Source: Octopus sinensis
Taxonomy: Eukaryota
NCBI RefSeq assembly: GCF_006345805.1
Contig: NC_043008.1
Location: forward strand, 24,242,001-24,306,000
Direction of reading: 5' to 3'
Length of the DNA stretch: 64,000 bases
In this document: one piece after another, positions 37,701 to 62,455 of the stretch
Numbering within the stretch: the first letter of the stretch is position 1
Layout of the letters: each line of letters opens with the position of its first letter
The notes under the pieces: generated by a model
What the model was told of the DNA's origin: nothing
The model's input: only the letters and a program-made list of their open reading frames with translations
The model's database searches: none
Made by a program: the position numbers and the translations under genes

Positions 37701-38109
37701 TTTCTCTCTGGAATGGGTTTTGTGGTCGATAAAATTCCATAACGGCTGACACCACGACCCCTACAATAGTTTTTTTCTAAATAACCTGTAATTGTAGAAG
37801 AGGGAAATGTCGATCGGCAAGTCGATAAGGTATTGAAAACAAGAAGGCCTGTTTTTATGATCTTCGTTACTTCTGTTGCAGATGAAAACAACTCTCAATC
37901 TAATCTACATAGCTCATTTACCATATTATACATAGATACCTGTTTACACACACACACGCACACATTTGCACACAGACACACATACACACACATACGACTT
38001 ACATAATGCATATATATATGTGTGTATGTTTGTGTGTATGTGCATGCATATATCTTTGTATATGTTTATATGCACAAACCGCAAGCATATATACAATGGA
38101 GTGAAACCA

Positions 38110-39815
38110 ATTAATGATAGTCTAACAACTAGAAAACCCGTGCTGCAGCTACCGATAACATCAATCGCCGAAGAATATAAAGCAGGAATGGCAAGAACAG
38201 TAATGATGCTAAGGTATTCGAAAGATCAGAACATCCGAGAAAACCCTCCAAATGTACGAACAGGGATGAAATGGAAAGCGGAAGAGGCAGTAGACAGGGC
38301 GATCGGAAAGTTAAGGCACCCCGATATAGTCGGAGCGACATAAGAAGCAAGAGCCGGTCTAGGGTCGCAGAATTTCAAATCATTTTGCATGAGCAGTATA
38401 AAAGAGAGGAAAGACGCAGTGGTGCACGAAGAGAGAAAGGAGGAAGAAGAAAGGCGTAATGTAGACAACAGGAACAGTGCCTGAGATGGAAAGAATATGT
38501 AGTCAGTCGCAGAATCTCAGGGAAGGAACTTTGGGCTTGGGGACAAGCAAGAACATCCTTTCTGATCAAGTCTATCTTCGACGTTTTACCTTCACCGGCA
38601 AATTTAGTCCGGTGGAACACACAAACAGACGAATGTAGATACGGAGAGAAAGCGACGGTGAGACATGTTCTGTCAAACTGCAGGCTAGCACTAGACAGAT
38701 ATACATGGTGTCACAATCAAGTCCTCGGTGGTATAAGCGCAGCACTCAAGGAGAAGATCGAGGGATATAATAGGGGAAAATACCCAAAAGTGGAAAAGCG
38801 CGGAAAAATATACTTCCAGAAGGAGGGAAAAGGACATAAGACCAGGTTTTTAAATAAAATGTACGAGACAGACGAAAGATGGAAAGTATACTGGGAACTG
38901 GCCGCAGATTTGGAAAGACTAAATATTTCCACTCATAAAAACAACAAAAAGACCTGACTTAATCTTATGGAACATAGAACGGAGAATTGGAATTTTGCTA
39001 GCGCTGACATCGTTAATGCAGAACATCGTTAATGCAGAGCAACAGAAGGAGAAGAGGTATGAGAAATTAGTCGAAGAGTGAGGAGAACAGGGATGGATTG
39101 TCGAGTATTACCACCTGGCAGTGGGGGCTAGAGGCTTCATTGAAAGGAAAATAACGACGTTATTTAAAAGAAAGTTTGCATTCTGGAGCTGAGAGCTGAG
39201 AAAAGTAATAAGGAGGGAGTCGAAAAAGCCAGCTTCTGTATATTGCTGAAGCGAGAAGGTCCAAAATGGCTTGAAAGCCACAACATGCCGACTGGGAAAT
39301 AGCGTCGCTAGATGAAGCTGGCTTACACATAAGCAGGATCGCTGATTGACAAGTGAGCCAAGGTAGCGGTCTCGTTCATAGCGACTCCTCCTCTGGTTCG
39401 AAGGTTTGTACCACAAAACAGCTGGTGGGCTCTGGCTGCTGGAAGTGAAACTAACACGACACTGTTGGAAGGTAGGTTTAGAGAGGGCGTGGACTAAAAT
39501 TGCGCGCCCTGCCCCTCCATTGGTCAGTTGAAACTTAGACAGTGTCACGTGACAGTTAGCTGGTGCTGGCTACTGGAGCCTACCGGCGAGTATTTAATGG
39601 GGAATTTGACAGGATGGTCAGTCGTCTGCTGACATTGGTTGACGCTGCACCGAAGAAACCAAAGGGCAGAAGAAAAAAGGAGAAAGAAGAAATGCATTCA
39701 ATACCAGAGCTGAAGACAACTCCGAAAGGAGGACTCCATCACGTCGAAAACGGTAGAGGAGTATGGGCCTAAACCTGACGTGGTTCCTCCTGATGATGCC
39801 TTTAGCCTAGTGTAT
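38110..39815 (+). mobile_element. 5'-truncated, decayed HERO-like RLE LINE (second family) with long 3' UTR
   Basis: LQLPITSIAEEYK, PPNVRTGMKWKAEEAV, FLIKSIFDVLPSPANLVRW, HVLSNCRLAL.RYTWCHNQVL, K.PDLILW and VGARGF. Colinear with, but diverged from, the element at 61090-62272. Confidence 0.88.
39709..39806 (+). ncRNA. Non-circularly permuted hammerhead-like motif (G12 mutated to T)
   Basis: GCTGAAGACA ... GGACTC..CACGTC gaaaac GGTA|GAGGAG tat GGGCC TAAACC t GACGTG g TTCCTC CTGATGA TGCCTTTAGC. Confidence 0.6.
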
Positions 39816-40039
39816 TTATAAGTTTGTGTATATATTCATACACAATTTATATAAATATTCAGACCGTGGCCAAGAAAGTGGCGGCAGCATTGGTTGGCTA
39901 GAAGCCAATAAGTGAGTGGAATATAACAACACGATTTCAAACTAAACACGGAAAAGTTACCGGAGTTCAAGTGTATTCCCCAACTGAAACTGAAGCTACA
40001 AGAGTTAATAAGCAAGATATCATCTATGATCACCCCCAG

Positions 40040-40800
40040 GTGGTGCGTAACAAAATACAGAATTACGATCTGAAGTTTGTTATTGTTGTATATGAGACGT
40101 TGTATATCAAGGATGGGAGGACCTCATGACTTTGTGAATTACACCAGTGACAATGGAGAACGAATGTCTCTATTGATTGGCCCCCACATGACTCATTGGG
40201 TGAAATATATTTCAGCAGGAGAATATCCACAAGATAACGTGGATCTCCCCAGATGGCGAGACCCAAAATTAGATCGGCTATATCTGCAATAGCAGATGAT
40301 GGTGAACATCACTGCTGGATGTTCGAAGTTACAGAGGGGCAGATATTAAATCGGACCACGATCTGAGCAACAGATTTGAAGCACTGTGTCATGCTAACGA
40401 TATTGAGGAGCAGTGGAAGTTGTTTCAACAGTTTATACCAGAAAGTGCAAGTATCACTTTAGGCAGAGACATGGACTTGTATCGATGAAATGAAGCAGGC
40501 TAAATGAAAACGTGATGAAAGAAGTCTAACCGACAGTGGAAGTTCTATTATGAAGACTATCGGAGAATTCTGCAGGAAGTGTAGGAAATGTGCAGAAGAG
40601 ACAAACAGCTCAAGTAGTTGCAAACAGAAACGACTCGTAAATTCTATATAAGGTCGTGTGCGATTTTACAAGTGCGAAGTGTAATTCCAATGAACGTATC
40701 AAGGTTAAAGATGGTAAAGAGCATACAACGGAAGAGGAACAAGCAATTTTCGTTAAGAGCATTTTCGTTAAGTGCTATATCAGCAATTCCAGCAATTACT
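40040..40800 (+). mobile_element. Decayed RTE-like apurinic endonuclease fragment
   Basis: TSLLDVRSYRGADIKSDHDL (APE C-terminal SDH motif) near 40305-40365. Confidence 0.65.
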
Positions 40801-41314
40801 TTTAAAATGGGCAATGACCCAACCAAGAATTTGTGCATGTATAAAGAGAATTAAAACAAAAGTACCCATCATAAATTTGTTAATTTTTCGTATAATACAT
40901 GTTTATTGATTTAATTAGTGTAGTTTCACTGAAGGTTTAAAAACAAAATAGAAATATGCACATTTTAAAAGAACGACAAAGACTGGAAATTAGAAAATGT
41001 ATAATGAGAAAGAAGGTCAGATGGACATTAAATGAACAGGTAAAAACATACGCATATACTCACACGTACATATGTGACGACGCGTTGGAATTTGCTAATT
41101 AGATTTCGGCTTATTTCAATTTCTGCAAAGATAAACATACACACATATGTATGTTTATACACTTATATCTATATGCATTCTTAATACCCGTTCCCATGTT
41201 TTTGCTTCAAGTATCTACAAATAATTCCATAGAATCATATAGTTAAAATTACATCTAACAGTTTTCGCTTTTTATATTATTATATCGTTATTCATTTTAT
41301 TTTCTGATATTTAA

Positions 41315-51899: not shown

Positions 51900-54800
51900 A
51901 GGTAGTGGGTAGCGAACTTCTTCACTACTTCAGGGAGTGACGACCCTGCCTGACACGAGTTCCGGGCTCAGCTGGCTTCGGCTGACAGTACCCGGTATTG
52001 GTTAGCTACTGCCCACCTCAAGCTGGGCAGCCCCCAGTTAATAAGGTGCTGACCCGCCACAGGCCGCCTGCTCCATTGGGTGCTTGGAGCTAAGAGTATG
52101 ACTCGAAAAGCGGCCTGCAACCTCTGCACCAGGCAAGCAACTAAAAGTCAAGAAAACACCAGTTCTGCGGTTGGCAAGCTGGAATATCTGATGATCTTCT
52201 CAAGATTGAAGACACAAGGAAAACGGCCATCATTGACCGTGAACTAAAGAGGCTCAACATAGATATTGCTGGGCTGCAGGAGACAAGACTTCCCTCAAAC
52301 GGCAAACTCAAAGAGCAGGATTTCACCTTCTTTTGGCAGGGAAGCGATCCAGAAGAACCTCGTCAACATGGCGTTGGCTTTGCAGTGAGAAACTCTTTAC
52401 TCTCCTCAATAAAACAACCATCAGGAGGCACTGAGCGTATCCTCTCACTGCGCCTCTCGACTTCTTCTGGCTCAGTACATCTACTCAGCATCTATGCTCC
52501 CACTCTCTACAGCTCAGAGGAGACCAAGGACCAGTTCTACAAAGATCTCAACTGTGTCATAGAAAATATACCAACGACTGAAAATATCTACCTTCTAGGA
52601 GATTTTAACGCTCGCGTGGGATCTGACCATGATTCGTGGCCCATTTGTGTTGGACACTTTGGTATTGGCAACATGAATGACAATGGTCAGAGACTACTCG
52701 AATTCTGCACATACCACAACCTGTGTATCACAAACACATTCTTTACCAACAAGCCATCCCACAAGGCATCCTGGAGACATCCAAGATCTCACCACTGGCA
52801 TCAGCTGGATCTCATCATTACACGGAGATCCTTTCTGAATTCTACTCTATTGACCCGCAATTACCACAGCGCGGATTGTGACACAGCCACTCACTAATTA
52901 GAAGTAGGGTGAGGATTCTGCCTAAAAAAGTCCATCGCTCCAAGAAAGTGGGCCGACCACGCATCAACATCGCCAGAACCTCGGACTCTACACTGCGAAA
53001 ATGTTTTGCTGCTTCTATCAAGGTTGCCCTCAGTAGCTGCCCAACCTCTTCTGCTGAAAGTAGGTGGGACTATATCAGGGAAGCCTTGTATACGACATCA
53101 ATAGATACTTTTGGCATGAGAGAAAGGCAAAACCCAGATTGGTTCAATGCTGGGCTCTCAGAGCTGGAGCCAATTATCGAAGCAAAGCGTGCAGCTCTGA
53201 TGCAATACAAGAGTGACTCTTCTACAAAGTCACTCGAAGAACTCAGAGAGGCACGAAATAAAACCCAACTGACAGCCAGACGCTGTGCAAACAGGTATTG
53301 GCAGGAAATCTGTAAGAGTATCCAGTCAGCTGCTGACAGGGGCGACACCCGTGGGATGTATGCCGGTTTGAAGAAGGCCCTCGGTCCATCCGCAACCAAG
53401 TCAGCCCCTCTGAAATCAACTACTGGAGATCTCATCAGGGATCAAGGCAAGCAAATGGATTGATGGGTGGAGCACTACCAGGATCTCTACTCACGGGAGA
53501 CTACAGTGGTTGAGGCTGCAGTCGAGAGTGTCAAGATCTTGCCAGTCATGTGCGAACTTGACAGTCCGCCATCTATAGCAGAGCTCACCAAGGCTGTTGA
53601 CTCCCTGGCAAGAAATAAGGCTCCGGGAAAAGACGGCATCCTCTCAGGGATCATCAAAGCCGGCAAAAACACCATCCTGCTTCGGCGCCTTCATGAGCTT
53701 CTGTGTCAGTGCTGGGAAGAGGGTACAGTCCCTCAGGATATGCGGGATGCTAACATCATTACGCTTTACAAAAGCAAAGGTGACCGTGGTGATTGTAACA
53801 AATACTGTGGTATATCCCTTCTAAGCACTGTTGGAAAGACCTTTGCCCGCGTTATCCTGGCCAGGCTACAACTACTTGCTTCTCAAATCTATCCGGAATC
53901 GCAGTGTGGCTTTAGAAGAAGCAGATCAACTATCGATATGATATTCTCCATACGCCAACTTCAGGAGAAGTCCAGAGAGCAGAAAATGCCATTATATATG
54001 GCCTTCATTGATCTAACAAAGGCTTTTGACTCGGTAAGCAGAACAGGCCTCTTCATCCTGCTCCAAAAAATCGGATGTCCACCAAAGCTGCTGAGGATCA
54101 TCAAGTCTTTCCATGATGACATGCAAGGCACCATAGAGCACAACGGTTCAACAGCAGCCGCCTTCCAAATAAAAAACAGGGTAAAGCAAGGTTGTGTCCT
54201 CGCTCCTACATTGTTTGGCATCTTCTTCTCGCTCTTACTTTCACATGCCTTTCAGACATCAGATGATGGAGTGTTTCTGCACAGTAGAAGTGACGGGAAA
54301 CTGTTCAATCTCTCGCGCCTGCGTGTCAAGACCAAAATCAGAAACGTCCTGATCAAGGAGATGTTATTTGCTGATGATGCCGCTCTCCAAACGGGCTTGG
54401 GACAACAATAAGCTGACCAAGACCGCGAAAATGTAGATCTACCAGGCATGTGTACTCAGCACTCTACTGTATGGAAGTGAGACCTGGACGCTATACACAC
54501 GCCAAGAGCGTCGCCTAAACAACTTTCACCTGCACTGCCTCTGGATAATTCTCTGCATCAAATGGCAGAATCATATCCCCAACAAAAATGTCCTCAGGCA
54601 AGCAGGAATACCAAGCATGTTTGCACTCCTCACACAAAGACGTATGAGATGGCTTGGGCATGTTAGCCGTATGAAAGATGGCAGAATCCCCAAGGACGTA
54701 CTCTACGGAGAGCTTGCTAGGGGTACTAGGTCTGTGGGTAGACCGATCTTACGTTACAAGGATGTTTGCAAAAGGGACATGAAGGCCTGCAACATCAATA

Positions 54801-55100
54801 TTAGCGGTTGGGAGGCAGTTGCTGGCAACCGTGGAGAATGGCGACGTACCGTAAAAGAGGGAATACAAAGGAGTGACAGAGAGAGAGAGAGGAGAAATGG
54901 AAAGAAAAGAACAGACGTCAACAAGAAACTATGGCATTGCAACCAGCCAGGAACAGTCTTCGCTACATTTGCGGTACCTGCCAGAGGGAGTGTTTGTCCA
55001 GGATAGGACTACACAGCCACATCAGGAAATGTATCAGGACATGAAATATAAAAGACGGACTAGACTACTTTTATGCGCAACTCCATTGTCTCCAGGGACA
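51900..55100 (+). mobile_element. Near-full-length RTE-clade LINE (APE + RT), inactivated by stops, frameshifts and a deletion after FADD
   Basis: DIAGLQETR, IYAPT, GDFNARVG, HQLDLII, KAPGKDG, PESQCGFR, FIDLTKAFDSV, KQGCVLAPTLF, LFADDAAL and RWLGHV..M.DGRIPK..LYGEL. Confidence 0.95.
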
Positions 55101-55129
55101 GAAAGGATGCCAACCAACTATATATATAT

Positions 55130-55559
55130 ACTGTTGTGTTTGGGGAGAGTGATTCTCTTTTTGTGCCTTATTATTTAACACACTAACCGGTAAAATTTCC
55201 ACTAGTTTCTTATCTTTATTTTCTAAAATTTTCGTTGTGTCTCTCAACCTTTTCAATAGTCTTGACTCTGTCCGTTATTTACACTGCGTTCCCTTTTGTT
55301 TGTTTGTGCGCATGTGTGTGGGTCAGTGGGCCAGTATGTGTGTGTGCCTATACATGCATGCATGTAAGTATGTATGTGTGTGTGTGTATTTGCATGTGTA
55401 TGTATGCATATATGTGTGTGTATGCATATGTATGTGTGTGCATCTGTATGTACGTATCCTGCATATTTATGTGCATGCCTGTTCCGTGTTTGTGTATTTT
55501 CTATGTGTGTGTGAGCATGTGCTTGTATATGTATGCACCTCTGTCTCCTTGTGTGTGCA

Positions 55560-55590
<31 letters not shown>

Positions 55591-56790
55591 TATGTAACTA
55601 TGTACCATGTTTGTATGTATGGATGTGTATCTTTATATGTGTGGATCCGTGTCTCCATATGTGTCTGTTCTTGTAACCTATGTACCTATCCGTCTGTATG
55701 TTGATCTGTTTGTTTATTTACATATCTAAATGCTTACATACAGAAATAAAAAAAAGGCATGCATACATACTCACACCCACATACATACATACATTTATCT
55801 ATCTAACAATCCACTAGCTATTCTACTCTACCTGTGTAAACTGTGGGTATGGAGGTATGGCATTTATTGTGTATATTTCCTATGTAATATTGGAGAGGTT
55901 TCATTTATAAGAACGTACTCCCGTATTTGTCTGAGTGTTGGGTCTTTTGGGTGCTTGAATAAGACGTGGATGTCGAGTTGACCCAAGTTACCTCCATGGT
56001 GGTCTTTAGCATGTTGGTAGAGTATGGAGGACTGTTTTCTGTCGTCATATTGTCTTAGATGTTCATTTATCCGTTCCGCAATGCTCCTAGACGTCTCCCC
56101 TATGTACATCATGTTCATGTCCTTACAAGCACCTTCTATGCATCTTATGCTGTAAACTACATTTCGAGTTCTACAGTTAATACCAAGGCTAATTCTACAT
56201 ACCATGCAGTTACCATTGGTGCATATGGTATTCTTAAACGGGTACGTCCTACGTAGTTTTGATCTGACGGAGTTCCCTGGCTTTTCAATAATTTTAATGT
56301 TGAGTTTGGTCTCCTTCAGAACTTTTCTAAATCTACGGGCTAGTTCTCCATGGGCTGTGGCCTCTACAAACATCACTCCTTGATATTTGTCGGTTTTATA
56401 CGACGTGTTCGCCCTGTATGCTTTGTCACAAGTTCTTTGTATTCTATTCCATTCTTTGTTTCTATATCTAGGGCAGGTACCACTGGCATCATTACGTATA
56501 ATGTTATCTAATTTCTTTCTAGCCCCCCTGTATACAAGAACCCTATCTTTCTGATCATATTCAGAGAACTACATGCGGTGTATGAAGTTCTGTATATGTT
56601 TCTTCATTTCATAGGGTTCGCATAGTGGGGACACATTGTTCATTATTCTAACTAGGTCTGCTACTAGTATGTTAATTTTCATATTGTGTGACAAAGCTGA
56701 GTTCTTGTGAACAACATATTTTGAAGTTACAGGTTTCATTTAATTAGAGTGGAGGAGCTGCACTCTATTGTTCACATTCTCTAACCATAT
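55130..56790 (-). mobile_element. Third Penelope-like family, 3' part with GIY-YIG endonuclease and pseudo-LTR
   Basis: ORF 55864-56376 contains C....CMVC, CRTRNVVYSIRC, YIGETSRSIAERINEH, HAKDHH and RQIRE. Confidence 0.88.
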
Positions 56791-58528: not shown

Positions 58529-58769
58529 TGGATTTGGTTAAAAAGAGACTATGAGCGATGGCTAGAAGAATATTGAGCTTAACTTCATAACCAGCTGATC
58601 TAGCAAGCGGGGCCTCATATCAGTGAGGGGGGGGGCGCATTGATGCCATCGAGAGGTAGGCCCCGAAACGGCGCGCATTCTCTCCTGATGACCCCATACA
58701 CTTGCTGGCTTCCAGTATACGGAGCTTTTGACTGGTAGCATTTGCATGTGCAAGTTGTTTTCAAGACAT
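58529..58769 (+). repeat. Upstream direct repeat (copy of the ORF end plus 3' UTR)
   Basis: TGGATTTGGTTAAAAAGAGAC ... GTTGTTTTCAAGACAT matches 62225-62455 with a few substitutions and a ~10-nt indel. Confidence 0.97.
58600..58708 (+). ncRNA. Permuted hammerhead-like motif, upstream copy (AUC triplet, one stem III mismatch)
   Basis: CTAGCAAG c GGGGCC ... GCCATC|GAGAG gta GGCCCC GAAACGGC gcgcatt CTCTC CTGATGA ... CTTGCTGG. Confidence 0.6.
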
Positions 58770-58799
58770 TTAAGACCTTGTGGTAGGTAACCACTGACA

Positions 58800-58895
58800 A
58801 ACCGGAAAGACGGTTAGGCATCTTGGAAAGACAAGAGGACTGCTCGGAAAGACGAGTGGACAATAGGAAAGACTATCGACATCAGGAAAGACTGG
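58800..58895 (+). promoter_or_regulatory. Array of five hairpins with an invariant G-GAAAGA-C loop in the 5' UTR
   Basis: Stems AACCG/CGGTT, TCTTG/CAAGA, CTGCTCG/CGAGTGG, ATAG/CTAT and TCAG/CTGG, each closing GAAAGA. Confidence 0.85.
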
Positions 58896-61800
58896 CGGAG
58901 GCTGCGGACTTACGATCCTCGCCTTTGTAATATATTGTAACAGAAATAAATGGAAATGACAGCCCCACGATTGACCGAGAGGGGGAAGTCGAGAATCAAT
59001 CAAACCCAGTCAGCACGGGAATGACCTTGGAAACGAATACGATTATTCATTCGAACAGCGAACGAAATGCAAACAACTTTAGATGCAAGCTGTGCTATAG
59101 AACCTTTGCAACTGTGAGAGGCTTGAAGATACATCAGGGAAAGACTTGTGAGAAGAGCACAGAGCAGTGTGGATCGTCAGATCGTAAAACACGTGGCAAA
59201 TCATCCCCGGACTCAAACCACAGCGGATCGATAAATGCTACAGCAGAGACCTCTTCACGGGATGAAACTACAAGTCATGAAACTGGTGCATCGGATAATA
59301 CTCAGAGGAAACCGAGGGTTTTGTGGCCTGCTGCTAATGAGAAAGTGAAATATAAAGAGTTTGAAAACAAGGTTTGTTGGGCTCTTTAGAAAATGACAGT
59401 GTAAATTATCAAGCTCAATATACGATATAGGAAAAGATTTATTTGGAGTAAAAGAGAATATCCGACTAGAGAAAGGAAAGTGTGGACCAAGCAGGAGGAT
59501 CAGAAAAATGCAGCAGTTGAGGAAGGAAAAGTCCAACTTAAGAAAGCGATGGAGATGTGCTGCACTAGATGAGAAACCTGGCCTTGCGCTGCTGTATAAC
59601 GATTTGAAGAGGAAATGTTGTTATGTGGAACGACATATCCGCCGATATGAGCGTCAAAAGGAGAGTAAAAGGACTCGGGGGCAATTTCTGAAGGACCCGT
59701 ACGAGTTTACTAAGAAGCTGTTCACTGAACCGAAGAGTGGTACTTTATCGTGCACAAAAGAAGAACTGGATGCTCATATCAAGGAAACCTACAGCGATCC
59801 GCACCGTAACCAGCCGCTGCCACCTCTACATGGACTAAATTATCTCTCAGGACCTGATATCGAATTCCAGATTGGGGACATCAGGGAGAGAGAGGTGAAA
59901 TACTTCTTAAGAAAAGCTAGAGCAAAGAGTGCCCCAGGAGGTGATGGCGTCTCATATAAAGTCTACAAGTACTGCAATCGTCTGCGAAAGAAGCTCTTCG
60001 TCCTACTCCGACAACTGTGGCGCGAGGAGACTATAGTAGAGGATTGGTGTAAGGCAGAAGGTATATACCTGCCGAAAGAGGCCAATGCAAAGACCATAAA
60101 ACAGTTTAGGCCGATATCCTTATTGAATGTGGGAAATTCTGTCGAGGAGAACAGTGACATATTTATAGAGTAACGGATATGTTGATGAATCTGTTCAAAA
60201 GGCCGGAATCCCCGGGATTCCTGGATGCGTTGAACTCTGTTTTTCGATTTGGAAAGCGATCCAAGACTCCAAACGGAACAGGAAAAGTCTGAACGTAGTA
60301 TGGCTCGACCTAGCTAACGCGTATGGTTCAGTGCCACACGAATTACTAATAACAGTCATGGACCACTTCTACATTCCTGACAAAGTGATCAGAATAATGA
60401 GGATGTACTATGACAGTTTCGAAATGAGGTTTACAGCTGGAGGTTTTACAACAGATTGGCACCGATTGGAGATTGGCATTGCTGCTGGCTGTACAATATA
60501 TGTCACGTGGTTTATCTTAGTCATGGAAATGATTTTGAAAGGTGTAGATTTTTCGGAACAAATCGCCCATATACAATCGCCTAAGAAAGCCTTCATGGAT
60601 GACGTGAAACCTCTAGCTACAGATAAACAAATCATGCAGAATGCCCTCTTGAGATTAGACGAACTTGTGAGGTGGTCAAGGATGCGATTTAAAGCAAATA
60701 AGTCGCGTAGTCTGACATTTGTTAAGGGAGTGCAGAAAGAATTTAAGTTTCGAATATCTGAAGAAAGCATTCCAACAGTCAAGGAAGAGCCCGTCAAGAG
60801 CTTGGGACGAGTATACGCTGGAACATTGTCAGACAGAAGTCGTGGGATTGAAATTATGAAACAGGCCGAGGCTGGGTTATCAGCGATTGATAATTCGAAG
60901 TTACCAGGTAACTATAAAATTTGGTGCTTGCAGTTCGGCTTGTACCCGCGACTTGCGTGGCCACTTTTAATATACGAGGTAGCATTGTCACGAGTTGAAA
61001 TCATAGAACAAAAATGTAATGTGTTCATTAGGAAGTGGCTAGGCCTACCTCGTATGTTGAACAGTTCAGCTCTTTATCGGAAAAGAGGTTCGTTGCAGCT
61101 ACCAATAGCATCAATAGTCGAAATATATAAGCTGGGGAAGATACGGACGGTCATGATGCTAAGAGAACCGAAGGATATGGAAATCAGGCGTAACCCACCA
61201 GAGGTGAAAACATCCAGGGAGTGGAAAGCAGAAGCAGAAACTGACGACGTCTTGTCTTCTCTTATACACAGAGATATGGTGGGTGCAACGCAGAACCATC
61301 GGAAAGGACTTGGTTTTGGCGCAGATCAGTTCAGACCGTTTGCAAGCATGATGCAGAGTGAACGCAGATCTGTTGTTAGCAACAGCGTCAAAACAAGAGA
61401 AGCAGAGAGAAGAGAGCTTCATTCGATCCGATGTTTTCATCAAGGTCAGATGACGAGATGGGAAGAACATGTTGTTGAGAGGAAGATAAGTTAGGATGAG
61501 ATGTGGAAATGGACGACATCTCGGCTGAATTTCCTGATTCGTTTATCTTATGATGTTTTGCCATCACCTACGAATCTAGTAAGATGGAATGTCTCAGAGA
61601 ATGACATCTGCAAATGTGGAAAGGTCGGTACACTGAAACATATTCTTTCCAACTGTTCATTAGCATTGAACAGGTATACACGGAGGCACAACTTGGTCCT
61701 TATGGTTATCTTCAATGCTATAAAGAACCAAATTCATCTCAACAACACAAAAAAACCGTTAAAAGTACCATCTAGAGATTTCGTTACCTTCGTGCGACCA

Positions 61801-62224
61801 GGTCAGCGGATCCGTTTCAAGAAGATCAAGAAACTTCCTGAGAGAAATGAAAAGTGGAACGGCTATTGGGAGGTAACTGCAGATTTACCTGGGTGCCAAG
61901 TTTTCTTTCCCATCCCAGTTACGAAAAAACCAGATATTTTGATGTGCTGTGAAAGAAAGAGAGTTGTAAATATAGTCGAGCTAACGGTTCCTCAAGAAGA
62001 TAATATGGACGCCGCTCGGGCTCGAAAATTGAACCGTTAATATAAACCTCCTCGAGGAATGTCAAGACGCAGGCTGGAAAACGGAACGTTTTCCAATCCA
62101 AGTCGGATGTAAAGGGTTCGTTGGACACCGTGTGAGACGACCGTTGTTATCGCTAGGCCTAACTCATCGTAAAGTCAATACCACCATGACTGATATCCAA
62201 TCTACAGTGGAGAAGGCTAGCCAC

Positions 62225-62455
62225 TGGATTTGGTTAAAAAGAGACAATGAGCGATGGCTAGAAGAATATTGAACTTAAATTCATAACCAGCTGATCCAGC
62301 AAGCGGGGCCTCATATCGGGGCGCATTGATGCCGTCGAGAGGTAGGCCCCGAAACGGCGCGCATTCTCTCCTGATGACCCAATACACTTGCTGGCTTCCG
62401 GTATACGGAGCTTTTGACTGGTAGCACTTGCATGTGCAAGTTGTTTTCAAGACAT
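62225..62455 (+). repeat. Downstream direct repeat
   Basis: Matches 58529-58769. Confidence 0.97.
62296..62394 (+). ncRNA. Permuted hammerhead-like motif, downstream copy with intact core
   Basis: CCAGCAAG c GGGGCC ... GCCGTC|GAGAG gta GGCCCC GAAACGGC gcgcatt CTCTC CTGATGA cccaataca CTTGCTGG. Confidence 0.7.

What the first reader, a model, noticed from the sequence alone, without database searches (positions are those of the whole stretch)
39709..39806. A second, diverged HERO-like family ends in the same permuted hammerhead fold with different stem sequences
Seen: closing helix GCTGAAGACA (39709-18) / TGCCTTTAGC (39797-806); triplet GUA (cut after 39755); stem I GAGGAG / TTCCTC followed by CTGATGA (39790-96); stem III GGT/ACC extended past a bulge by CACGTC/GACGTG. 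The other family shows the same bulged extension with GCGC/GCGC. There is an imperfect stem II (GGACTC/GGGCC), a 3-nt stem I-to-II linker and an extra TCC-GAAA-GGA hairpin. G12 is T here, so this copy is probably dead. Inference: the same element order and core with different paired sequences in two families within one window argues against chance and suggests a clade-wide motif.
Basis: partly seen in the sequence, partly recalled or inferred. Interest (0 to 1): 0.72.

Follow-up and report, generated by a model that had tools for sequence, protein, structure and literature searches.

The report
Worn copy of rewired hammerhead ribozyme
This stretch is a mutated, probably dead copy of a repeated RNA motif in the tail of an animal jumping gene; the motif carries every core part of a self-cutting hammerhead RNA in a scrambled order, and intact copies are predicted to cut themselves, as hinted by genome insertions that start exactly at the predicted cut.

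Summary
The sequence features are at the stated coordinates.

- **Position 39770.** Across 30 family copies it is G in 19, A in 10 (CpG decay) and T only in the window copy.
- **Stem II.** The commonest form pairs fully (GGCCCC/GGGGCC).

The motif belongs to a 5'-truncated copy of an R2-like LINE with a restriction-like endonuclease (family F2). It lies about 67 nt before the family's 3' end, and the window copy has lost that tail.

A second family in the window (F1, 45% protein identity) has the same order of elements and an identical core (CUGAUGA, GAAA, GUH). Its stems I, II, III and the extra helices differ by compensatory changes.

The strand order is that of the type-SGC hammerhead (Eckert 2023). 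However, the 5' strand of stem II is detached from CUGAUGA and rejoined through a four-way junction.

Cleavage has not been tested. As an indirect trace, 9 (F2) and 8 (F1) independent insertions start exactly at the predicted cut, against 0 to 2 at three control positions.

F1 5' ends are always preceded by the 3' tail (30 of 30 loci). This fits copying from circular or tandem RNA, but that is an inference.

This scan has reported the same fold many times before, in this genome and in others.

The parts
38070..39807 (+). 5'-truncated, decayed copy of LINE family F2: the C-terminal part of the ORF plus the 3' UTR. It has lost the family's last ~67 nt.
   Evidence: Other copies align to 38132-39807 with variable 5' ends. 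The ORF remnant 38460-38957 is 45% identical to the C-terminal domain of F1. The start near 38070 was judged by eye from the translations. Tail absent.
39709..39718 (+). Closing helix, 5' strand (GCUGAAGACA)
   Evidence: Pairs with 39797-39806 at 9 of 10 positions in the window and at 9-10 of 10 in 10 of the 11 other F2 rows (8 of 10 in L052). It is also part of the nested minimum-energy fold.
39719..39731 (+). Extra hairpin (family form CCUCC-GAAA-GGRGG) sitting between the closing helix and stem II
   Evidence: F1 has a hairpin in the same place with another sequence (CCUCA-UAUCAG-UGAGG).
39732..39737 (+). Stem II, 5' strand. GACUCC in the window; GGCCCC in the commonest family form.
   Evidence: Pairs with 39764-39769 at 4 of 6 positions in the window and 6 of 6 in the commonest form.
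39739..39745 (+). Helix x, 5' strand (UCACGUC). It corresponds to the helix that ties stems I and II together in type-SGC hammerheads.
   Evidence: Pairs 7 of 7 with 39777-39783. F1 has GUGCGC/GCGCAU in the same place.
39746..39750 (+). Bulge (GAAAA) between helix x and stem III
   Evidence: The bulge is AAAA in subfamily B and AUUGAU in F1.
39751..39755 (+). Stem III 3' strand (CGGU) plus A17. The predicted cut lies between 39755 and 39756.
   Evidence: U16.1 is T in 27 of 30 copies and H17 is A in 28 of 30. Insertions start at the base after this point.
39756..39761 (+). Stem I, 3' strand (GAGGAG)
   Evidence: Pairs 6 of 6 with 39784-39789. It covaries with F1, which has GAGAGG/UCUCUC.
39764..39769 (+). 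Stem II, 3' strand. UGGGCC in the window; GGGGCC in the family.
39770..39773 (+). GAAA box, mutated to UAAA in the window copy (G12 to U)
   Evidence: G 19, A 10, T 1 of 30 copies. A13, A14 and A15.1 are A in 30 of 30.
39773..39776 (+). Stem III, 5' strand. ACCU in the window; ACCG in the family.
39777..39783 (+). Helix x, 3' strand (GACGUGG). It is joined directly to stem III on one side and to stem I on the other.
39784..39789 (+). Stem I, 5' strand (UUCCUC)
39790..39796 (+). CUGAUGA box (C3 to A9)
   Evidence: Each position is kept in 28-30 of 30 copies.
39797..39806 (+). Closing helix, 3' strand (UGCCUUUAGC). It follows A9 directly.
58600..58708 (+). The same motif in family F1, in a partial upstream copy. 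The predicted cut is after 58650. This copy has G16.2 changed to A.
   Evidence: L084:1331-1439
62296..62394 (+). The same motif in family F1, in the 3' UTR of the near full-length element 58770-62455. The predicted cut is after 62346. This copy has a deletion that removes the 3' half of the hairpin and the second GGGGCC.
   Evidence: Compare the commonest F1 form.

Best explanation
Window 39709-39806 is a mutated, probably inactive copy of a ~98-nt motif from the 3' UTR of an R2-like LINE family; the motif holds every conserved hammerhead core nucleotide in a permuted strand order, and intact copies are predicted to cut themselves after GUA (39755|39756).

**Shown by the sequence.** The order of elements is: closing helix 5' strand, hairpin, stem II 5' strand, helix x 5' strand, bulge, stem III 3' strand, H17 and the cut, stem I 3' strand, UA, stem II 3' strand, GAAA, stem III 5' strand, helix x 3' strand, stem I 5' strand, CUGAUGA, closing helix 3' strand.

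This is the block order S-G-C of the type-SGC hammerhead. It includes that type's short stem I to stem II linker and its helix tying the far ends of stems I and II together. The difference is that the 5' strand of stem II is not joined to A9. Instead A9 runs straight into the closing helix. That helix, the hairpin, stem II and the core meet with no linker bases, as a four-way junction. The ends of the motif therefore lie inside block C.

**Inferred role.**
1. Transcripts that span a partial head-to-tail pair of units would be cut at two ribozymes.
2. This would give a unit-length RNA.
3. That RNA would be rejoined into a circle, or an uncut tandem RNA would be used instead.
4. The element's reverse transcriptase would copy it, starting at the 3' tail.
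5. Linear cut monomers would give only the short insertions of 118-124 nt that begin at the cut.
For: **Core.** CUGAUGA, A13, A14, A15.1 and C15.2 are each kept in 28-30 of 30 unselected copies. G12 is G in 19 and A in 10, at a CpG. The pattern TA-N6-GAAAC-N15-CTGATGA occurs 2518 times against 11 for the reversed control.

**Two lineages with covarying stems.**
- F1 and F2 are 45% identical in protein. Their core and the lengths of their elements are the same, but the stems differ.
- Stems I and III: 96.7% of cells are paired, against 48.8-64.6% when the partner is slid. Three pairs are changed on both sides (on 24 chosen rows).
- Stem II is GGCCCC/GGGGCC in F2 and GGGGCC/GGCCCC in F1.
- Helix x is CCACGUC/GACGUGG in F2 and GUGCGC/GCGCAU in F1.
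- The closing helix is different in sequence and paired in both families.

**Match to a validated relative.** Type-SGC hammerheads have a linker of about 3 nt from stem I to stem II, a helix joining the other sides of stems I and II, and in some cases a direct join of that helix to stem III. They cleave in vitro (PMC10085705, sections 13, 14 and 18 read).

**Trace of cutting in the genome.**
- F2: 10 of 13 filtered hits (9 independent loci) have unrelated DNA right up to the base after the predicted cut.
- F1: 5 of 12 such hits, plus 3 more from a second filter, giving 8 independent loci.
- F1 also has three junctions of ORF-internal sequence joined at the cut, or within 2 nt of it, and one inverted junction.
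- Controls: 2 of 14 hits at position -4, 1 of 13 at +6 and 0 of 3 at -3.
- Copies with the 19-mer after the cut intact: 994 for F2 and 638 for F1.

**Tandem or circular template.** 30 of 30 F1 loci that hold the 5' UTR have 6 to more than 260 nt of the 3' tail directly upstream. These are 16 independent loci plus one array. In F2, 2 of 30 sampled 3' ends run straight into the 5' region of another unit.
Against: - No cleavage assay exists, and no usable RNA ends were found. The runs offered were contigs only.
- A helix inserted between A9 and position 10.1 is not known in any tested hammerhead. Eckert et al. assumed that this block is never interrupted.
- Several joins have no linker bases (stem III to helix x, helix x to stem I). 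These are hard to fit to the crystal geometry. Eckert et al. raise the same puzzle for some type-SGC examples.
- The 5' strand of stem II is the most variable part. 13 of 29 unselected F2 copies pair at 4 of 6 or fewer. Many F1 copies, including an array on contig C18, have deletions there.
- A nested rod-like fold that pairs the G-run with the 5' strand of stem I competes with the ribozyme fold, at -37 to -45 kcal/mol.
- The covariation rests on only two lineages, because differences within a family are neutral decay.
- None of 16 independent full-length F1 insertions has an upstream partial copy that starts at the cut. Simple 5' trimming by the upstream ribozyme is therefore not supported.
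- The circle itself is not shown. Template jumping by the reverse transcriptase, or tandem master copies, would give the same junctions.
Confidence: 0.68

Rival explanations
1. The motif is only a structured 3' UTR element, a pseudoknotted or rod-like fold that the element's reverse transcriptase binds to start copying, as in R2. Its likeness to a hammerhead core has no catalytic meaning.
For: R2-type elements are known to use structured 3' UTR RNA. I saw only the start of the abstract of PMC12222951 in the listing. The nested fold is stable, with z-scores of -1.7 to -3.7. The motif lies close to the 3' tail where copying starts. Copies with a broken stem II are common.
Against: - A binding fold gives no reason to keep all 11 or so core nucleotides in exact register with three helices in two families that are only 45% identical in protein.
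- In the rod fold the 3' strands of stems I and II lie in a loop, yet they covary with their pseudoknot partners.
- It does not explain why insertion 5' ends pile up at the predicted cut.

The two roles could coexist.
Confidence: 0.17
2. It is a working ribozyme, but its job is to trim read-through or tandem transcripts into linear RNAs, as proposed for the hammerheads of Penelope-like elements and the HDV-like ribozymes of R2. No circle is formed. The head-to-tail junctions come from template jumping by the reverse transcriptase, or from tandem master copies.
For: The trace of cutting and the tail-to-5'UTR junctions fit this reading as well. That R2 reverse transcriptase jumps between templates in vitro is recalled knowledge and was not checked here.
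Against: If trimmed linear RNAs were the usual template, full-length copies should often carry a 124-nt leader starting at the cut. None of 16 independent F1 loci does. All 30 of 30 5' ends are preceded by tail sequence, which would need a jump in every event.
Confidence: 0.3
3. It is a chance resemblance found by a reader who was free to choose the helices.
For: CTGATGA alone is not enriched in the window (15 against 9.85 expected). No Rfam family matches.
Against: - The same architecture recurs in a second, diverged family with compensatory changes.
- The layout matches an independently validated permutation.
Confidence: 0.02

Closest known systems
Type-SGC hammerhead ribozymes (HRIMA-1 motif and variants; Eckert, Friedrich, Weinberg and Weinberg 2023, PMC10085705; outline and sections 13, 14, 15 and 18 part 1 read, plus found passages)
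   Same: - Block order: site, then GAAA, then CUGAnGA.
- A 2-3 nt linker from stem I to stem II.
- A further helix joining the other sides of stems I and II.
- That helix is joined directly to stem III in some cases.
- The core consensus is complete.
   Different: - Here the 5' strand of stem II lies upstream of the site block and is not contiguous with CUGAUGA.
- A closing helix and a hairpin are inserted between A9 and position 10.1, forming a four-way junction.
- The motif's ends therefore lie inside block C.
- The motif is found in an animal genome, in the 3' UTR of a LINE, and not in metatranscriptome RNAs linked to hairpin ribozymes.
- It has not been tested for cleavage.
Canonical hammerheads of Penelope-like elements and retrozymes (as described in PMC8557442, passages read; Lunse et al. 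2017 seen only in a reference list)
   Same: A hammerhead carried in the terminal repeat region of a retroelement that inserts as partial head-to-tail tandems. Its proposed role is to process tandem transcripts.
   Different: Those are nested type I or type III folds in elements with a GIY-YIG endonuclease. This one is pseudoknotted with a split core, in an element with an R2-like reverse transcriptase and a restriction-like endonuclease.
HDV-like ribozymes at the 5' ends of R2 and other LINEs
   Same: A self-cleaving ribozyme built into an R2-type retrotransposon RNA to define an RNA end.
   Different: A different ribozyme class, placed at the 5' junction. The cut here lies about 118-124 nt before the 3' end.

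Membership tests
Hammerhead ribozyme (catalytic core) | CUGANGA box directly 3' of one strand of stem I | tested here: met
   Window 39790-96. Each position is kept in 28-30 of 30 copies.
Hammerhead ribozyme (catalytic core) | GAAA box (G12, A13, A14, A15.1) between stems II and III | tested here: met
   In the family: G12 is G in 19 of 30 and A in 10 of 30; A13 to A15.1 are kept in 30 of 30. The window copy itself fails, because G12 is U.
Hammerhead ribozyme (catalytic core) | A15.1-U16.1 pair and an NUH cleavage triplet next to stem I | tested here: met
   GUA in F2 and GUC in F1. U16.1 is kept in 27 of 30 and H17 is A in 28 of 30.
Hammerhead ribozyme (catalytic core) | Three helices around the core, supported by covariation | tested here: met
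   Stems I and III; stem II. Only two lineages are compared. Stem II is broken in 13 of 29 decayed copies.
Hammerhead ribozyme (catalytic core) | A9 contiguous with position 10.1 of stem II | tested here: not met
   A9 is followed by the 3' strand of the closing helix. The 5' strand of stem II lies about 60 nt upstream.
Hammerhead ribozyme (catalytic core) | Site-specific self-cleavage | not testable with these tools
   There is only an indirect trace: insertion 5' ends at the predicted cut.
Type-SGC hammerhead (Eckert 2023) | Blocks S, G and C in this 5' to 3' order, each uninterrupted | tested here: not met
   The order S, G and the first half of C is met. Block C is split, and its stem II strand precedes S.
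Type-SGC hammerhead (Eckert 2023) | A short linker from stem I to stem II, and a helix joining the other sides of stems I and II | tested here: met
   UA linker. Helix x has 7 bp in F2 and 6 bp in F1, with different sequences.
   For F1, R2 proteins score E = 1.4e-9 to 1.9e-7, against 6.5e-5 for the best non-R2 chain and 6.6e-5 for LINE-1 ORF2p, and there is a Pfam RVT_1 match. The F2 copy in the window lacks this region, but its C-terminal part is 45% identical to that of F1.
   Motifs were seen by eye in the translation (C..C...H....C, RHN, KPDI, ELTVP). What defines them is recalled. There was no match in Pfam, NCBIfam or PDB sequences, and the Atlas gave only unnamed clusters.
   No reference HERO sequences were to hand.

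The most novel reading that the evidence does not exclude
An animal LINE carries a working hammerhead whose catalytic strand is split and rejoined through a four-way junction. It uses this ribozyme to cut unit-length RNAs out of partial tandems. These RNAs close into circles that its reverse transcriptase copies round and round. That would be a LINE that multiplies through a circular RNA, and a hammerhead topology outside all six block orders considered so far.
Probability: 0.3. Interest if true: 0.9.

Novelty: new variant of a known kind. Interest (0 to 1): 0.68.

Why it matters
**If intact copies cleave, three things follow.**
- Non-circularly permuted hammerheads would be found in animal genomes, in thousands of copies, and not only in metatranscriptome RNAs.
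- The hammerhead core would be shown to tolerate a helix junction between A9 and position 10.1. Earlier searches assumed this never happens, so they would have missed such motifs.
- Ribozyme use by retroelements would extend to LINEs with a restriction-like endonuclease.

**A testable replication route.** The partial head-to-tail insertions of these elements could be explained by copying from circular or tandem RNA.

**Literature checked.** None of these searches of the held library found a paper describing this motif:
- hammerhead + type-SGC
- hammerhead ribozyme + non-LTR + HERO
- hammerhead + Hero + retrotransposon + ribozyme
- hammerhead ribozyme + restriction-like endonuclease
- hammerhead + four-way junction + permut + retrotranspos

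The window copy itself is a dead relic.

Tried and rejected
**Searches that gave nothing**
- Rfam at gathering threshold on the whole window, and by E-value on 38500-41000: no ribozyme family.
- Pfam and NCBIfam on the F2 ORF remnants and the C-terminal domain of F1: no match. PDB sequence search of that domain: nothing. Protein Atlas: only unnamed clusters.

**RNA evidence**
- No RNA holder was listed. All 24 runs are kept as contigs, and their RNA status is only a guess.
- Laying contigs on an F2 copy and an F1 copy gave no starts or ends. Contigs bridge the cut site. This says nothing either way.

**Readings rejected**
- Closing helix as stem II of a normal hammerhead. No GAAA follows its 3' partner in either family.
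- A motif on the reverse strand. It has no CUGAUGA.
- A kink-turn at the bulge. The unbulged strand has no unpaired G.A partners in F1 or F2.

**Other attempts**
It was shortened to 35 places.
- I found no way to search for further families with other stem sequences. Looser patterns would be swamped by chance hits, and only 100 rows are listed.
- The full-length 5' end of F2 was not reached. Three copies extended by 7 kb upstream are all 5'-truncated. Two tail-to-5'-region junctions were seen instead.
- The DNA after the window motif shows no significant likeness to the family tail: 45 of 300 shuffles score as high.
- The '+2' patterns were meant as controls but detect starts at the cut again. 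They are reported as extra detections, not as controls.
Full report
**The observation.**
- GCTGAAGACA (39709-18) opposite TGCCTTTAGC (39797-806)
- GTA at 39753-55
- GAGGAG (39756-61) opposite TTCCTC (39784-89)
- CTGATGA (39790-96)
- TAAAC (39770-74)
- CACGTC/GACGTG flanking GGT/ACC
- a TCC-GAAA-GGA hairpin

CTGATGA alone is not unusual in the window (15 copies against 9.85 expected). No Rfam model matches.

**The repeat family (F2).**
- The stretch belongs to a repeat family. The first look found at least 512 candidates, of which 40 were scored.
- The copies have variable 5' ends and a common 3' limit against the window at 39806-39808, as LINE copies do.
- The motif is on the sense strand, downstream of an ORF remnant.
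- That remnant is 45% identical to the C-terminal domain of the other family in the window.

**The host element.**
The other family (F1) has a near full-length unit at 58770-62455.
- It has a weak C2H2 finger match and an RVT_1 domain.
- Its best solved relatives are R2 proteins (E = 1.4e-9), ahead of LINE-1 ORF2p (6.6e-5).
- Its C-terminal part shows CCHC and PD..E.K-like motifs by eye. No library confirms them.

I therefore call both families R2-like LINEs with a restriction-like endonuclease. The label HERO could not be tested.

The motif is not the very end of the element.
- 28 of 30 F2 copies continue for about 67 nt to ...GGAATTCC. One copy keeps only the last part of this tail, and the window copy has none.
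- F1 likewise runs on for about 60 nt past its motif.

In the 30 copies found by similarity, which were not selected on the core, position 39770 is G in 19, A in 10 and T only in the window copy. The A fits decay of the CpG formed with C11.1. All other core positions are kept in 27-30 of 30.

The commonest 5' strand of stem II is GGCCCC, which pairs 6 of 6 with GGGGCC.
- Of 29 copies that could be parsed, 8 pair 6 of 6, 8 pair 5 of 6, and 13 pair 4 or fewer.
- Many of the poorly paired copies carry a G-run in place of the C-run.

Both predictions hold, with that caveat.

The window copy carries several changes:
- G12 changed to U
- stem II at 4 of 6
- stem III at 3 of 4
- an A.C mismatch in the closing helix

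It is very probably dead.

**Anatomy.**
Reading the best-kept natural copies, F2 is:

GCUGAAGACA | CCUCC-GAAA-GGRGG | GGCCCC | G | CCACGUC | (G)AAAA | CGGU-A^ | GAGGAG | UA | GGGGCC | GAAA | CCG | GACGUGG | UUCCUC | CUGAUGA | UGUCUU(U/G)AGC

F1 is:

CUAGCAAG-C-GGGG | CCUCA-UAUCAG-UGAGG | GGGGCC | G | GUGCGC | AUUGAU | GCCGU-C^ | GAGAGG | UA | GGCCCC | GAAA | CGGC | GCGCAU | UCUCUC | CUGAUGA | CCCC-AUACA-CUUGCUAG

Three points follow from this layout.
- The site block, the GAAA block and stem I plus CUGAUGA are canonical and come in that order.
- A9 runs with no linker into a helix whose other strand leads through a hairpin into the 5' strand of stem II. The four arms meet as a perfect four-way junction in both families. 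In F1 this is the GGGG/CCCC pairing seen.

**Comparison with what is known.**
Eckert et al. 2023 (PMC10085705) described and validated type-SGC hammerheads.
- The blocks come in the order site, GAAA, CUGAnGA.
- A linker of about 3 nt joins stem I to stem II.
- A helix joins the other sides of stems I and II.
- In some examples that helix is joined directly to stem III.

The present motif shares all of this but splits block C. Those authors assumed that block is never interrupted, so their searches could not have found this motif.

No search of the held library found a description of this motif. Penelope-like elements carry canonical hammerheads in their terminal repeats, and Naiads are reported to lack them. 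That is context only, because the elements here are not Penelope-like.

**Covariation.**
Differences within a family are neutral decay, so the evidence lies in comparing the two families.

I built an alignment of 24 chosen rows. They are 12 of 37 F2 and 12 of 33 F1 copies listed, picked for few core mismatches. The F2 rows were also picked for a C-run in stem II, so the stem II figures from these rows are biased.
- Stems I and III are paired in 96.7% of cells, against 48.8-64.6% when the partner is slid.
- Three pairs are changed on both sides.
- Stem II swaps two G-C pairs to C-G.
- Helix x and the closing helix differ entirely between families and still pair.

These are two lineages, not many.

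**A trace of cutting in the genome.**
If the RNA is cut, reverse transcription should run off at the base after the cut. I searched for the 19-mer after the cut, preceded by bases that differ from the family. I then checked the 80 nt upstream against family references.

| Test | Filtered hits | Unrelated DNA up to the boundary |
|---|---|---|
| F2, at the cut | 13 | 10 (9 independent) |
| F2 control, position -4 | 14 | 2 |
| F2 control, position +6 | 13 | 1 |
| F1, at the cut | 12 | 5 |
| F1 control, position -3 | 3 | 0 |

- Eight of the nine independent F2 insertions run on to the normal tail end, giving insertions of 118 nt. The ninth (L068) has unrelated sequence from about 22 nt past the cut.
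- Seven of the F2 +6 control hits are a recurrent 8-nt deletion.
- F1 has one further junction of ORF-internal sequence joined at the cut and one inverted junction.
- A second filter added three more plain F1 starts, giving 8 independent loci. It also found two more ORF-internal junctions at or within 2 nt of the cut, and three starts at +2 or +3.
- The 19-mer after the cut is intact in 994 F2 copies and 638 F1 copies.

The excess is modest in number but consistent across both families.

**How the element may use it (inference).**
- All 30 loci that hold the F1 5' UTR have 6 to more than 260 nt of the 3' tail directly upstream. These are 16 independent loci plus an array on contig C18.
- In F2, 2 of 30 sampled 3' ends run straight into the 5' region of another unit.
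- The template is therefore continuous across the junction of tail and 5' UTR.
- None of the 16 independent F1 loci has an upstream part that starts at the cut. Simple trimming of a linear template is therefore not supported.
- A unit cut at both ribozymes has its tail near its 5' end. It would give only the short insertions that were observed.
- Longer copies need an uncut tandem RNA or a rejoined circle.
- I rate the circle at about 0.3. Template jumping by the reverse transcriptase would give the same junctions.

**What weighs against the ribozyme reading.**
- No assay exists, and the RNA data offered were contigs without ends.
- The split between A9 and position 10.1 is untested in any hammerhead.
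- The joins without linker bases are sterically puzzling.
- The stem II 5' strand is hypervariable.
- A stable nested fold competes with the ribozyme fold.

**Earlier notes of this scan.**
Searches show that the same fold has been reported many times in this genome and in others, with the same comparison to type-SGC. I treated these notes as leads and ran the tests above on these two families myself.

**Verdict.**
- The locus is a dead copy of a new variant of a known ribozyme class.
- Cleavage is predicted and has indirect genomic support, but it is unproven.

Noticed in passing
Loci L127, L128, L130, L131, L133, L137, L138 (F2 copies): Seven separate F2 copies share the same 8-nt deletion (ACGG|TAGGGG). 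It removes the cleavage site and the 3' strand of stem I. This is either a subfamily or repeated slippage between GTAG repeats.
   Followed up: partly
F2 and F1 copies, the stretch between the hairpin and helix x (window 39728-39738): The G-run/C-run tract that forms the 5' strand of stem II is far more variable than the rest of the motif in both families. It varies in run length, shows GGGGGC in place of GGCCCC, and has deletions. No explanation was tested.
   Followed up: partly
G000 contig C18, 3.7-5.2 Mb, and several unplaced contigs (L086-L090, L093-L097, L100, L103, L111, L113): A cluster of near-identical F1 units shares a 5' UTR variant. About half of them (8 of 14) have deletions in the hairpin and stem II 5' strand region of the motif. 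It looks like an array or a segmental duplication.
   Followed up: no
Window 52145-55700 (+): A separate LINE of the apurinic-endonuclease type (Exo_endo_phos and RVT_1 domains) lies just upstream of the F1 copies.
   Followed up: no
Window 61492-61494 and 60169-60173: The near full-length F1 unit has an in-frame TAG between the reverse transcriptase and the C-terminal domain, and a frame change at the start of the reverse transcriptase ORF. This copy is therefore itself slightly broken.
   Followed up: partly
Loci L074, L078, L114, L146: Head-to-head inverted junctions of family copies close to the motif, of the kind usually put down to twin priming.
   Followed up: no
folds of L009, L012, L101 and window 39709-39806: A nested rod-like fold pairs the purine run upstream (hairpin 3' strand and stem II 5' strand) with the 5' strand of stem I. 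It could act as an off-state of the ribozyme.
   Followed up: no
(runs X16-X20): Runs under five other species labels hold 29-57% of the sampled 31-mers of an F2 copy, so near-identical copies seem to exist in related taxa.
   Followed up: no
Tails of F1 and F2 (window 58709-58769 and 62395-62455): Both tails share GGAGCU.UUGA..GGUAGC followed by a terminal hairpin of different sequence (AACCACG-AAA-CGUGGUU against CACUUGCA-UG-UGCAAGUUG). This is probably the site where the reverse transcriptase starts.
   Followed up: no
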